A stretch of 64,000 bases of DNA from the NCBI GenBank assembly GCA_964016885.1, contig OZ024741.1, forward strand, positions 203,298,001-203,362,000. Direction: 5' to 3'. The DNA is from Eledone cirrhosa (lineage: Eukaryota). The notes beneath the pieces are model-generated. The model was not told where the DNA came from. It worked only from the letters and a program-made list of their open reading frames with translations, and did no database searches. Each line of letters begins with the position of its first letter. Positions within the stretch are counted from its first letter, which is position 1. The translations under genes were made by a program, and so were the position numbers. Shown one piece after another: positions 10,042 to 52,228 of the stretch.

Positions 10042-10490
10042 ATTAATAAGAGGAATTCCAACTTTGTCTGATTTACTCGTTTTATTTACAATCCTTTAAA
10101 ATATATAATGGTATTATAATGAAATAGTATGGTAGAATATTAAATTCTAAGTGTTAATTGAACAAGTACTTTCATGCTTTCGCAATCTTCAGGTTCATAA
10201 TATGTGGTGACAGTCAAGTTTGCAATTTTCAACTGCAATTTTCAACAGTTGAAAATTGCAAACTTGACTGTCACCACATATTATGAACCTGAAGATTGCG
10301 AAAGCATGAAAGTACTTGTTCAATTAACACTTAGAATTTAATATTCTACCATACTATTTCATTATAATACCATTATATATTTTAAAGGATTGTAAATAAA
10401 ACGAGTAAATCAGACAAAGTTGGAATTCCTCTTATTAATATAATCGTCTATACACAATCATACACACCCGTGTATATTTACTTATCTCTC
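10042..10490. mobile_element. Palindromic HHR element (apex ~10240), nested in another inverted pair (9890-9975 / 10530-10625)
   Basis: tgaac-CTGAAGA-t-tgc/gca-t-GAAAGTACTT-gttca at 10284-10322; flipped twin at 51785-52228. Confidence 0.85.
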
Positions 10491-10906
10491 TCTCTCTCTA
10501 TATATATAAAATATATATAATATATATATAGTAATAATAATAAATTTGAAGACTAAAATCCAAAGAGGGCTCGATAAGGATAAATATATAACAGATATAT
10601 AAGAACCGTAAAGCAAATATTTATTATATATATATATATCCAGGGAGTGTAACGTGAAGTAACTGTAGATTCACCCAGGTGACCACCCGATATATATGTT
10701 CACGTCAGTGGCGAGGTGTAGAGCTTGACAGAGTGTAATATAATATTACACCAGCAACAGCAGAGGTCCGACGAGCTTTTGATTCCAGAGTCGGGCCAGA
10801 TCGAACCTTCAGCTGATCAATAATGAAACGCGCGTCACCAATCAATAAACGTATTAAAGGCTTAACAAATCGTTCTTGTATTATTATACTATATATATAT
10901 ATATAT

Positions 10907-11562
10907 GGAATAGAATATGAATGGAATAGAATGAAACGAAATTTCATTTCTCACTCTTAGTACGGCACTTACTTAAATGTAAGTGTGTATGTATGTATAC
11001 GAACATATATATATGTATACAGATGTTCAGTAGTATGTATATATATACATACATGCTCACATATATATATATGCACGTATCGGTTTACCGAACATTTATT
11101 ATAATGCTCGGTTTGTTCGTTTGTAAACAAACAAACAGCCCGAATTACGCCGTACAGTGTTTAGGCAACCACGTCACCTTTTTGTTCAACACTGACACAG
11201 GAATGATGTACTAGTTTCAAGCTTATTAGCTATCGTCAGCATCGTTTACCTTCCTACCAGATGGTTGAACGTCTGAAAGTATATACTTTCTTTATGCATA
11301 TTAACGGCTGAGCAGCCTAATTTGCATATCGAGTGAGTTCAGTCGGCTGGGCGCACCGAAAACGATAAATGGAATAGAATGAAACGAAATTTATATCTCA
11401 CTCTTAGTATGGCACTTACTTAGATGTAAGTATGTATGTATACGTACATACATATATGTATACAGACGTACGTGCATATATATATGTGTGCATGTATGTA
11501 TATATATACATACTACTGTACGTCTGTATACATATATGTATGTACGTATACATACATACTTA
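10907..11562. mobile_element. Retrozyme-like unit, subfamily C, with short inverted arm
   Basis: Homologous to the 466-bp unit; HHR on - at ~11203-11248 (CTGACGA core); inversion near 11470. Confidence 0.8.
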
Positions 11563-12227
11563 CATATATATATATATATATATACATATATATATATATA
11601 TATATATATATATATATATATATATATATATATATATATATATATATATATATATATATATATATATATATATATATTTATTAAAATAACAGATTAAAGT
11701 TTAAGCAAAGAATCGCTGCTTACACCCTTAACGGGATCTTCTGAAACTAACAAAGTCAATCTGTAAACGCAGAACTGGATATTTCAAAAAACGTTGCAAC
11801 CGGAGGAAGACAGGAAGACGATACTTTGGTTCGTGGAAACGTTCGCTGGCAAAGAACGGGAAAAAACGAATAATACGTCATTAATAGGAGCGGTGAAAAA
11901 CAATTACGCGCAAAGACAAAACCACGTTTATGGTATAAAAGAGGTCGTAGACTAATGTTCTCTTAGGTGGATAGAAACAAATAAATACATACACGTACAT
12001 ACGCAAAACCATCTGGATTGTATAATGATTAAATAATGATTTTGTAAATTTCTATATACACTCCGCAAATTGTTACACCTGAAATCTATAGTAAAACAAC
12101 CACAGGATCTACCAATTGGAATAATTCGTACGTTGTGTAAACCACTACTGTAAGCGGTCTTTGCGTCTTGTTGAACATCAAATTAATTGATTACACTAAC
12201 GAAAATTGAATAATACTATAATTGTAT

Positions 12228-12382
12228 AAATATATATGCATAATTTAATATAGAAATAGCTTCTACAGGACTAGAACTGTTTCATTCGAAGGAAATCATC
12301 ATGGCTTTTTGATTATTTCGTTCGAATGAACTAGTTTTAGTCCTGTAGAAGCAATTTCTATATTAAATTTTGTATATACTCT
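12228..12382. repeat. Imperfect palindrome with degenerate HHR (atgatga-ttc/gaa-tgaaac on -)
   Basis: aatatagaaatagcttctacaggactag matches tagtcctgtagaagcaatttctatatt in inverted orientation. Confidence 0.6.
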
Positions 12383-48925: not shown

Positions 48926-49217
48926 AAATTTATATATATATATGTGTATGAGTGTGTGTGTGTGTGTGTGTGTGTGTGTGTGTGTGTGTGTGTGTGTGTG
49001 TGTGTGTGTATGTGTGTGTGTGTGTGTGTGTGTGTGTATGCATGTATATTAAAAGAGAGCGTGAAGTTTCAATTTAACATATTTTATTTGCACCCACGCG
49101 TAATACGTGTTACGCAAATGACCAGCACAAAACCTTAATAATTTATGACCAGCTTTGGCCCAGGGATCGACTTATATTTCTACACTTTTACAATAATAAT
49201 AATACATTATTATAACT

Positions 49218-49600
49218 GCGGTGGATTGGCAGTATCGGTAGAGGGTCGGACACCATGCTCTCCAGCTTAGTTACGTCCCTTTACGATCTGAGTTCAAATC
49301 CCGCCGAGGTTGACTTTACTTTCATCCTTACGGGGTCGATAAAATAAAGTACCTGTAATGCACTGGGTAATTGCTGGCCTTGTGCCTAAAGTAGAAACAA
49401 TTATTATAACTGCGGTGGATTGGCAGTATCGGAAGAGGGTCGGACACTATGCTTTCCAGCATAGTTACGGTCTTTATGGTCTGAGTTCAAATCCTGTCAA
49501 GGTTAACCTTGCCTTTCATCCTTACGGGGTCGATTAAATAAAGTACCAGTAATACACTTGGTTAATTGCTGGCCTTGTGCCAAAAGTAGAAACAATTATT
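49218..49600 (+). mobile_element. Two tandem octopus-type SINEs
   Basis: gcggtggattggcagtatcgg...gagttcaaatcc...ggggtcgat...ggccttgtgcc..aagtagaaacaattatt occurs twice. Confidence 0.8.
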
Positions 49601-51784
49601 ACTCACTAACTGGCTGTCAACATGAATGAACGTTATTTTTATCTAAAGACATTTTTTCCAATTTCACCCCGCCCGTCCCTTCAATCTATCTTATTTCTCA
49701 TTCTTTCTTCAGATGACAGACTAGCGTCCGAAACGTTAAGACACTCTTCCTGCTATTTCAAGCGTTAACCTAATATATTCCTTCCATATATTGTACCGAT
49801 TGTGTTGTTATTTCTGTTTACCTTTTACACACACACAGGCACACACACACACACACACGCACGCTCACACACACACACACACACACACACACATATATAT
49901 ATATATATATAATATATATATAGTTCAAGGAGACAACAAACCGAGGTACAAAAAGTTTTATTAGTTTCACGCTTTATATTGGAAAAGAGGAAAGAAAGTC
50001 CGACGTGTCGGGCTTAAGCCCTTCTTCGGGAGTAATAAAGGGGGTGGAAGAGAGGGAGAAAAAGAAGGCGGTTTCTGTGTGTCTTTGGGATGATAATTAC
50101 CTAATAAGTTAGCTATCTCGATCAGATGTAAATAGCAATAGCACGGTCAATTTAGTAGTAGGAGCGGCAATTTCACCGAAGACAATTCTTTGTGAAAGTT
50201 CTTCAAATAATCCCAATTCTCGAAGGGAGTAAGAGAATGCTTAAAAAATATAAATATATATGTTTTATTTTTGTCTGTGTAGTGTTCATGTTAAAAATTG
50301 GTCACATTCTATGAGCTTGGAAGAAAACACTAACCTATTTGGCAGAAGACTCACTTTGCTGGATTCTTACCCAGAACAATCATCTTAAGTAAGCATATAT
50401 ATATATATGTGTGCGTGTGTGTGTGTGTGTGTGTGTGCGTGTGTGTGTGTGTGTGTGCGTGTGTGCGTGCGTGTGTGCGTGTGTGTGCGTGCGTGCGTGT
50501 GTGCGTGCGCGCGCGCGCGCGTGTGTGTGTGTGTGTGTGTGTGTGTGTGTGTGTGTGTGTGTGTGTGTGTGTGTGTGTGTGTGTGTGTGTGCGTGTGCGC
50601 GCGCGCGTGTGTGTGTGTGTGTGTGTGTGCGTGTAGCTATATATATAAAGGAGTGGGAGAATATATAAAGTGTTGATATTTCTTGATCAATTTAGAAATA
50701 ATGTTAATATCCCATCTATTCTGAAAAAAGAAATGATTTCCAGCTGACGATCTGCAAAGAAAAGAATCTGTGTTTTTGAAGTTAGTGTTTCTCTGTGAAT
50801 TCTGCGAATTATCAAACACAAAACATGAAGTGAGACGAAGTCAATTGAAGGCAATCTCACGGGAGTGTAGCACTTGAAGTATTTTAGAAGCCGAACAACT
50901 GGTAATTTTGAGAAAATGGAATGGAGCTAAGCTGGAAGTTATCAATAAAGATATCCTCTATGGAATATGATATTTATTGTTTTCTAGTTCTAGTTTTAGA
51001 CTGAACTGGATTTTTTTAAAAATAATTTTTTGCCAAAATCTAATAAACACAGGCCGACTCATTTCAATTGTAGGTTTCTTCGTAAATAAGTATACAAGTA
51101 TTTATACAATTTTTATTAATATTTAATTACCCCAAAACTGAATTTTTTATACAATAGTTATATTTATGTTCCACATAAAATATACAGTAGGTCTATTCAT
51201 TTCATTTTTTGTTCTTTACTTTAATTTATCCATCACGTAATTTTCTGAAGCTCGCTGCAAATAGTCGACTGGATAAAGTATTTGTCTAATGTTTCAATGC
51301 AATGACCGTGTTCCTTTTTTTCTCCATCAAAGCTTTTCAAAAGTGCCGACGCTACGATTAAAGACAACTAAGCAGCTGCCCAGGGTGCAAATCTCAGAGA
51401 TGTGTATTACTAACCCTTAAAGGATCACAATTTTAAGCAAATTTGTAGAATTAAATTAAATATATAAAAAATGTTATAATTGGGGATCCATCCGGATCAG
51501 TTGGAGACGGTTGCTTCTGAGAGACCCCGCTGGAAGGAATGTTTGAGGACTCTGCCTCCACGACCTTCTCAGGAATTAAGTGGGCGAAGAAGAAGAAGAA
51601 GAAGGAGAAGAAGAAGAAGAAGAAGAAATATTCTCGACTGCGGCACCACACACACACACACACACACACACACACACACACACACACACACACACACACA
51701 CACACACACACATATATATATATATATATATATATATATATATATATATATATATATATAGAGAGAGAGAGAGAGAGAGAGAGA

Positions 51785-52228
51785 TAGGTAAATATACACG
51801 GGTGTGTATGATTGTGTATAGAAGATTATATTAATAAGAGGAATTCCAACTTTGTCTGATTTACTCGTTTTATTTACAATCCTTTAAAATATATAATGGT
51901 ATTATAATGAAATAGTATGGTAGAATATTAAATTCTAAGTGTTAATTGAACAAGTACTTTCATGCTTTCGCAATCTTCAGGTTCATAATATGTGGTGACA
52001 GTCAAGTTTGCAATTTTCAACTGTTGAAAATTGCAGTTGAAAATTGCAAACTTGACTGTCACCACATATCATGAACCTGAAGATTGCGAAAGCATGAAAG
52101 TACTTGTTCAATTAACACTTAGAATTTAATATTCTACCATACTATTTCATTATAATACCATTATATATTTTAAAGGATTGTAAATAAAACGAGTAAATCA
52201 GACAAAGTTGGAATTCCTCTTATTAATA
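51785..52228. mobile_element. Flipped twin of the 10042-10490 palindromic HHR element
   Basis: Almost identical arms; the apex is the exact reverse complement of the 10221-10260 apex. Confidence 0.85.

What the first reader, a model, noticed from the sequence alone, without database searches (positions are those of the whole stretch)
10042..52228. A whole palindrome, including its asymmetric apex, is duplicated 42 kb away in flipped orientation
Seen: the apex tgcaattttcaactgcaattttcaacagttgaaaattgca (10221-10260) is the exact reverse complement of the apex at 52009-52048, and the long and short arm ends also match. Inference: the hairpin is the mobile unit, with an HHR on each strand so either transcript could self-cleave (a rod-like, ambisense-ribozyme RNA). 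It is not made afresh at each insertion, unlike the retrozyme arrays whose junctions all differ.
Basis: partly seen in the sequence, partly recalled or inferred. Interest (0 to 1): 0.7.

Follow-up and report, generated by a model that had tools for sequence, protein, structure and literature searches.

The report
Locally copied Penelope hairpin junction
The two matching hairpins are back-to-back stubs of an abundant Penelope-type jumping gene, a shape likely rebuilt at each of hundreds of insertions, and this pair likely matches because DNA repair copied one from its neighbour, not because the hairpin jumps as a self-cutting RNA.

Summary
Observation confirmed: the apices are exact reverse complements, the copies are 99.3% identical, and no flanks are shared. 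The unit is the terminal repeat of a Penelope-like element (PLE): a 195-nt arm, a 235-nt arm with the 40-nt tail, a minimal hammerhead per arm, in (TA)n. 807 loci fold back at this site. 32 of the first 50 share one minimal apex on 25 haplotypes, so apices are likely made afresh at a fixed RNA 5' end; earlier scan notes reached this for other families here. The 40-nt apex has four copies, three within 360 kb. Rare apices are shared by neighbours: of 7 pairs under 60 kb, 3 are identical and 1 differs by one base, against 40 of 12,396 distant pairs. In the three other close twin pairs the apex is flipped against the tail, and arms differ in two. The ambisense-ribozyme idea is not supported: forming the hammerhead costs about 71 kcal/mol in the hairpin RNA on either strand. 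Unexplained: all four close twins are inverted on the chromosome. RNA untested; assembly artefact not excluded.

The parts
10039..10233 (-). Copy 1 short (inverted) arm, PLE terminal-repeat positions 1-195, no tail
10234..10247 (.). Copy 1 apex: 13-nt slip duplication plus the family's minimal one-base join; inferred RNA 5' end at 10245
   Evidence: the 5' end is inferred from junction statistics
10248..10482 (+). Copy 1 long arm, positions 1-235
10443..10482 (+). Copy 1 40-nt PLE tail (present on one arm only)
   Evidence: tail described in PMC8557442 and PMC11167929
10284..10322 (+). Minimal type I hammerhead motif (CUGAAGA, 3-bp stem II, GAAA, palindromic stem III); predicted cut between 10317 and 10318
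   Evidence: motif scan, fold; Rfam gathering threshold not reached; activity untested
10159..10197 (-). Mirror-image hammerhead motif in copy 1 short arm
51787..52021 (-). Copy 2 long arm with tail (tail 51787-51826)
52022..52035 (.). Copy 2 apex, reverse complement of copy 1 apex
52036..52230 (+). Copy 2 short arm, positions 1-195
51947..51985 (-). Hammerhead motif, copy 2 long arm
52072..52110 (+). Hammerhead motif, copy 2 short arm
9975..10043 (.). (TA)n target tract beside copy 1
52226..52491 (.). (TA)n target tract beside copy 2
9886..10619 (.). Outer palindrome of another repeat (arms 9886-9974 and 10531-10619, 98.9% identical) that brackets copy 1; both flanks of copy 1 belong to one original site, so no inversion breakpoint here

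Best explanation
Each hairpin is a head-to-head stub of a Penelope-like retroelement's terminal repeat, likely built afresh at insertion, and this pair likely matches because a DNA-templated repair event copied the apex and most of the arms from one copy into its neighbour. Step 1 (shown): the arm is the terminal repeat downstream of an RT + GIY-YIG ORF; one arm ends at 195, the other at about 235, in (TA)n. Step 2 (inferred, from PAc biochemistry in PMC11167929): the enzyme nicks both strands, primes two cDNAs at two RNA sites 40 nt apart, and both run off a fixed RNA 5' end. Step 3 (inferred): the two identical 3' ends anneal through a 5-nt near-palindrome with a central T:T mismatch, giving the minimal apex with A or T at random; run-off slips add short templated duplications such as this 13-mer. 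Step 4 (pattern shown, mechanism inferred): a neighbour within about 5-55 kb, once 317 kb, serves as template for gap repair. This happens either while the insertion is being completed or after a break or fork stall at the hairpin centre, so the apex and a variable length of arm are copied while the outer parts and tail stay the recipient's own. The hairpin RNA is predicted not to self-cleave.
For: PLE identity: ORF upstream in L217/L218, GIY-YIG E 1.7e-6 above cut-off, YLDD and linker cysteines; L218 has a 1,215-nt inverted copy also ending at 195. Abundance: 5,821 exact hammerhead 32-mers; 807 loci fold back at this site. Afresh: minimal apex in 32 of the first 50 loci, 14 A: 12 T in the 26 with clear orientation, on 25 haplotypes among 31 long arms; native sequence ends 3 nt upstream at 47 of 74 arm ends and never beyond 4. 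A 17-nt apex recurs at 5 loci on 5 chromosomes with different arms. The slip class has 19 loci of many micro-variants. Local copying: among 158 long-apex loci, 3 of 7 pairs under 60 kb are identical and 1 differs by one base, against 40 of 12,396 far pairs; without the three C2 copies, 2 of 6 identical, reached in 33 of 200,000 label shuffles. Apex moves without arms: L001 differs from the window copies at 4 family sites in both arms, and its haplotype (one to three private changes apart) recurs at L180 and L181 with other apices. The C5 and C9 twins have different arms; the C5, C7 and C9 twins have the apex flipped against the tail. Known parallels: distance-dependent conversion among neighbouring Alus (PMC8230782, passages); breaks at short-spacer palindromes (PMC7999016, passages).
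Against: For the window pair both arms match, not only the apex: their haplotype is in 3 of their 4 arms and in none of the other 109 of the 113 arms counted (a sample chosen for part of this haplotype, shows it at L083 on C3). That needs a roughly 400-nt tract or later arm-to-arm correction and looks like whole-unit copying. All 4 close twins are inverted on the chromosome, which simple conversion does not predict (p about 0.06-0.125). Distances exceed the roughly 10 kb reported for Alus. Close pairs are in excess (6 against 0.5 expected under uniform placement, C2 copies left out), which also fits new local copies. No RNA, no raw long reads and no second individual were available. Apex groups were labelled by eye; 11 of 170 long-apex loci were not listed.
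Confidence: 0.62

Rival explanations
1. Local RNA route: the PLE enzyme switches from its own RNA (which supplies the tail) onto a nascent transcript that runs through a neighbouring palindrome, and copies it, apex included, into a nearby (TA)n site.
For: The window copies have identical bodies but different tails. Close pairs are in excess. A strand-specific nick beside a tethered transcript could explain the constant inversion (inference).
Against: L001, C5 and C9 twins keep their own arm haplotypes. The template would be a 195-bp perfect duplex. No RNA evidence is available.
Confidence: 0.14
2. Simultaneous insertions: two insertions under way in one nucleus exchange their single-stranded cDNA ends, so they share a junction without later repair.
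For: The window and C7 twins are very young and of one haplotype (0-2 private changes). Arms within a locus are often mosaic: 10 of 44 are discordant near the apex.
Against: Cross-joining would tend to invert the interval, yet copy 1 sits in an intact outer palindrome. C5 twins differ in haplotype and in divergence.
Confidence: 0.1
3. Assembly or polishing artefact: reads from one palindrome were written onto its neighbour.
For: Palindromes in (TA)n are hard to assemble (PMC8557442, passage). Twin distances of 5-55 kb resemble long-molecule sizes (own knowledge). One further twin is a plain 2.46-kb tandem duplication with flanks.
Against: Twins differ in arms, tails and private mutations, and the C5 apices differ by one base. 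One partner is 317 kb away.
Confidence: 0.07
4. One reading: the whole hairpin is a mobile rod-like RNA with a working ribozyme on each strand.
For: The unit is shared without flanks, and a fourth copy of the apex lies on another chromosome. There is a hammerhead motif on both strands.
Against: Only 4 copies. The C7 copy (L004) has arms of another subfamily. The hammerhead is buried by 70.6 kcal/mol on both strands. Ends and tail are PLE signatures shared by hundreds of loci.
Confidence: 0.04
5. Pure coincidence: two independent insertions made the same slip.
For: The same slip, or a one-base variant, occurs on C7, C9, C12 and C18 on other haplotypes; this likely explains the C7 copy.
Against: The apex is 4 of 807 loci, three of them within 360 kb, and the pair shares a rare haplotype as well.
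Confidence: 0.03

Closest known systems
Endonuclease-containing Penelope-like elements with inverted 5'-truncated copy and tail (Craig et al. 2021, PMC8557442, passages and section 11; Arkhipova et al. 2013, PMC3846280, passages)
   Same: RT then C-terminal GIY-YIG, head-to-head inverted terminal repeat, 30-40 bp tail on one end, (TA)n targets, hammerhead in the repeat.
   Different: Here hundreds of insertions are stubs of the repeat alone with one fixed fold-back point. PMC3846280 reads such junctions as self-priming on an antisense template; I read them as two cDNAs joined at a fixed 5' end.
PAc (Poseidon, Anolis) in vitro (Frangieh et al. 2024, PMC11167929, parts 1-2 of 4 read)
   Same: Cuts and extends both strands at AT-rich DNA; two RT start sites bracket the tail; hammerhead cleavage is not needed for insertion.
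   Different: Other clade: this family has a CX4CxxC linker and CCHH-type residues (Neptune/Nematis-like; no tree built). Second-strand joining was not shown there.
Minimal PLE hammerheads (Cervera and de la Pena 2014, PMC4209133, passages)
   Same: Type I, 5-bp helix I, extra base after position 9, palindromic helix III; such motifs showed low activity and needed dimers.
   Different: Helix II is only 3 bp with U-U where G10.1-C11.1 is usual; in the palindrome the motif is paired with its own complement.
Non-allelic gene conversion among neighbouring Alu elements (review PMC8230782, passages, citing Aleshin and Zhi 2010, not read)
   Same: Neighbours are homogenised more than distant copies, with no shared flanks.
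   Different: Range here is 5-55 kb (once 317 kb) rather than about 10 kb; the tract is centred on a palindrome apex and is inverted in all 4 close pairs.
Ambisense viroid-like RNAs and ambiviruses (search listing only; definition partly recalled)
   Same: A ribozyme motif on each polarity and a rod-like predicted fold.
   Different: Those are replicating circular RNAs with distinct ribozymes; this is a genomic perfect inverted repeat whose ribozyme is predicted not to fold.
Animal non-LTR retrozymes (bioRxiv 10.64898/2026.07.22.740005, part 1 of 5 read)
   Same: PLE-related, type I hammerhead; the 466-nt arrays in this window fit this kind.
   Different: The finding's unit is not a tandem array and has a fixed apex; the arrays turn at variable points, as expected of templates without a fixed 5' end (inference).

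Membership tests
EN+ Penelope-like element | RT ORF with C-terminal GIY-YIG endonuclease linked to the repeat | tested here: met
   L218: GIY-YIG E 1.7e-6, above cut-off; RVT_1 only E 0.005, below cut-off; YLDD visible. The window copies carry no ORF.
EN+ Penelope-like element | Inverted 5'-truncated copy head-to-head | tested here: met
EN+ Penelope-like element | 30-40 bp tail at one end only | tested here: met
   Short arm ends at 193-197 in 28 of 50 loci, long arm at 228 or later in 42 of 50
EN+ Penelope-like element | Hammerhead motif in the terminal repeat | tested here: met
   Motif scan; no Rfam hit at gathering score; catalysis untested
EN+ Penelope-like element | (TA)n insertion bias | tested here: met
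   (by inspection, not counted)
Neptune/Nematis clade versus Hydra | CX2-5CxxC linker and CCHH motif; placement on an RT tree | tested here: inconclusive
   Motifs read by eye fit Neptune/Nematis and not Hydra's CxCX5C; no tree built
Ambisense viroid-like rod RNA | Foldable self-cleaving ribozyme in each polarity | tested here: not met
   Forcing the hammerhead costs 70.6 kcal/mol on either strand, against 1.8 in one arm (prediction)
Ambisense viroid-like rod RNA | Circular RNA of both polarities in cells | not testable with these tools
   No RNA run was listed for the arm
Mobile hairpin unit (MITE or fold-back type) | Many dispersed copies with the same centre, arms and orientation of centre to ends | tested here: not met
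   4 copies on 3 arm haplotypes; centre flipped against tail in 3 other twin pairs
Mobile hairpin unit (MITE or fold-back type) | Target-site duplication and symmetric ends | tested here: inconclusive
   Ends are asymmetric by 40 nt; a duplication cannot be read inside (TA)n
Non-LTR retrozyme | Tandem hammerhead-bearing monomers | tested here: not met
   One monomer per arm
Non-allelic gene conversion | Shared tract without shared flanks, enriched at short distance | tested here: met
Non-allelic gene conversion | Pre-existing recipient with a different sequence; direction of transfer | not testable with these tools
   Needs other individuals or sister species

The most novel reading that the evidence does not exclude
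Penelope insertions are finished by copying from the nearest sister palindrome through a strand-biased route (a switch between sister replication forks, or onto a tethered nascent transcript), so that the junction is always written inverted on the chromosome. Rare apices would then be natural barcodes that record both the RNA 5' end and the unknown last step of PLE integration.
Probability: 0.25. Interest if true: 0.65.

Novelty: new variant of a known kind. Interest (0 to 1): 0.36.

Why it matters
How PLEs build their inverted ends and complete the second strand is stated as open in PMC8557442 and PMC11167929. A family with 807 junctions at one site, about 170 of them individually recognisable, lets anyone count how often junctions recur by chance (0.3% of distant pairs) and how often they are copied locally (about half of close pairs). 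That makes both the joining step and ectopic repair at short palindromes measurable from one genome. It also warns that identical junctions in PLE stubs do not by themselves show a new mobile unit. The parts themselves are known.

Tried and rejected
Rfam scan: no hammerhead at gathering score, one tRNA-like hit. Run search for RNA: no RNA holder listed. Laying four contig runs on the apex: the family is present, no listed piece spans the stretch, uninformative. PDB sequence search with the ORF: nothing relevant. Segmental duplication: rejected for the window copies but true for the C2:123.5 Mb twin, a 2.46-kb tandem duplication, collapsed to one locus before counting. Inversion with hairpins at both breakpoints: rejected at copy 1 (intact outer palindrome). 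The similar repeat scrap beyond the short arm of both copies is only 82% alike over 50 nt and is not a shared flank. The rare G87-A88-C102 haplotype (84 arm matches) first looked like a marker of the three C2 copies, but L001's haplotype recurs on C4 and C8 with other apices, so it only partly links them. Neighbouring minimal-apex loci on C1 mostly differ in haplotype, so local identity is not universal. The three close pairs that are not twins each include a partner whose inverted arm is only 15-69 nt. Literature searches for local junction copying or twin priming in PLEs (listings only) showed no such paper; the library lacks most subscription papers and no supplements were read.
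Full report
Observation. The two 40-nt apices are exact reverse complements and the units match at 99.3% over 458 nt. Each is a 195-nt inverted arm, a 14-nt centre and a 235-nt arm, in (TA)n and (TC)n tracts. A minimal type I hammerhead motif lies in each arm; Rfam does not call it. The three differences between the copies (short arm 35; tail 199 and 235) all fall on sites that vary in the family.

Identity. A DNA search of the genome gave dispersed copies. [quoted passage not shown] One long copy has a 1,215-nt inverted part that also ends at arm position 195. 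This is the described PLE layout: inverted 5'-truncated copy, 30-40 bp tail, (TA)n targets (PMC8557442, passages; PMC3846280, passages). In vitro a PLE protein cuts and extends both strands and starts at two RNA sites that bracket the tail (PMC11167929, parts 1-2 of 4). The genome is an animal's, 3.0 Gb; earlier scan notes call it octopus-like, which I did not test.

Apices are made repeatedly. The hammerhead 32-mer has 5,821 exact matches, and 807 loci fold back at this same site with 0-30 nt between the arms. I fetched all of the first 50 listed. 32 have a one-base centre, 14 A to 12 T in the 26 with clear orientation, on 25 haplotypes among 31 long arms. Native upstream sequence stops 3 nt before the arm at 47 of 74 arm ends and never passes 4 (37 records, one locus counted twice). 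I infer a fixed RNA 5' end and two run-off cDNAs that anneal through a 5-nt near-palindrome with a T:T mismatch. Arms within a locus agree far more than arms between loci (10 of 44 discordant near the apex against 0.87 between loci), and 16 loci share private changes in both arms. The finding's apex is this join plus a 13-nt slip; 19 loci carry such slips in many variants. Long apices recur on different chromosomes with different arms. The window's 466-nt retrozyme-like arrays turn at variable points, as a template without a fixed start would give (inference). Earlier notes of this scan reached a twin-priming reading for other families in this genome; I had noted it before looking.

But this pair is not chance. 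The 40-mer has 4 copies, with or without 2 mismatches: two in the window, one 317 kb upstream (L001), one on C7 (L004). In 464 kb around the window these three are the only family copies, and they share no flanks. I listed 159 of the 170 loci with centres of 9-30 nt, collapsed one tandem duplication and grouped apices by eye. Of 7 pairs under 60 kb, 3 are identical (window 41.8 kb, C7 43.9 kb, C9 55.1 kb), 1 differs by one base (C5, 4.6 kb) and 3 differ. Of 12,396 more distant pairs, 40 are identical. Without the C2 copies, 2 of 6 close pairs are identical, reached in 33 of 200,000 shuffles. The C9 pair came from the last, held-out list.

What is copied. L001 shares the apex but differs from the window copies at 4 sites in both arms, and its haplotype recurs on C4 and C8 with other apices, so the shared tract is under about 31 nt each side. 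L004 has arms of another subfamily and is likely an independent slip. C5 and C9 twins have different arms, and in C5, C7 and C9 the apex is flipped relative to the tail. The apex therefore travels without the ends, as in gene-conversion-type repair. Against this reading: the window pair shares both arm bodies, with a haplotype absent from the other 109 arms counted (though seen at L083); close pairs are in excess (6 against 0.5, C2 copies left out); and all four close twins are inverted on the chromosome, which I cannot explain. Copy 1 sits in an intact outer palindrome, so no inversion broke there.

Ribozyme. The palindromic transcript folds into a perfect stem of about -320 kcal/mol. Forcing the hammerhead costs 70.6 kcal/mol on either strand, against 1.8 in one arm, and on both strands the complement is made first. 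Minimal PLE hammerheads are weak even when free (PMC4209133, passages). Four records (three loci) begin at arm positions 67-73, near the predicted cut after position 70, a hint that single-arm RNA is sometimes cut. Expression could not be tested.

Verdict. The feature is real and its parts are known. It is a PLE stub palindrome, likely rebuilt at each insertion, with this pair likely made alike by local DNA-templated copying (0.62). The mobile ambisense RNA is unlikely (0.04). The new element is the measured local sharing of junctions and its unexplained inversion bias. I found no paper on it in four searches (listings only, library incomplete, supplements not read).

Noticed in passing
window 8084-9815, 21812-23063, 35030-39983, 45186-47293, 47334-48926, 54632-55126: Palindromic arrays of a 466-nt unit with a hammerhead on the minus strand. 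Several end at unit positions 1 and 60 (a roughly 59-nt tail-like offset) and turn at variable points. Retrozyme-like; similar arrays were reported by earlier notes.
   Followed up: partly
window 9831-9974 and 10531-10625: A second, young palindromic repeat family (arms 98.9% identical, one arm about 50 nt longer) with copy 1 inserted in its central TA tract; a related scrap lies at 52574-52620.
   Followed up: partly
window 44830-44902 (-): tRNA-like Rfam hit (36 bits) beside microsatellites; possibly a tRNA-derived SINE head.
   Followed up: no
L032, L034, L056/L057: Copies whose sense arm starts at positions 67-70, and L033 at 73, next to the predicted hammerhead cut.
   Followed up: partly
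G000:C2:123517170 and 123519628; G000:C3:335533815 and 335553971 (L178, L179): Family copies duplicated together with their flanks (2.46 kb and 20 kb apart): tandem duplications or assembly duplicates.
   Followed up: partly
L218 315-3832: Long PLE copy with a 1,215-nt inverted duplicate at 99.4% identity and a 450-aa open RT-thumb-GIY-YIG frame; a second, different PLE-like GIY-YIG frame lies at 5138-6001.
   Followed up: partly
palindromes sampled: Arm discordance at family-polymorphic sites falls from the apex outward (10/44, 9/44, 6/45, 2/46), suggesting apex-centred template mixing across the family.
   Followed up: partly
window 4001-8000: Strong G skew (0.35-0.64) and high GC, unlike the rest of the window.
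   Followed up: no
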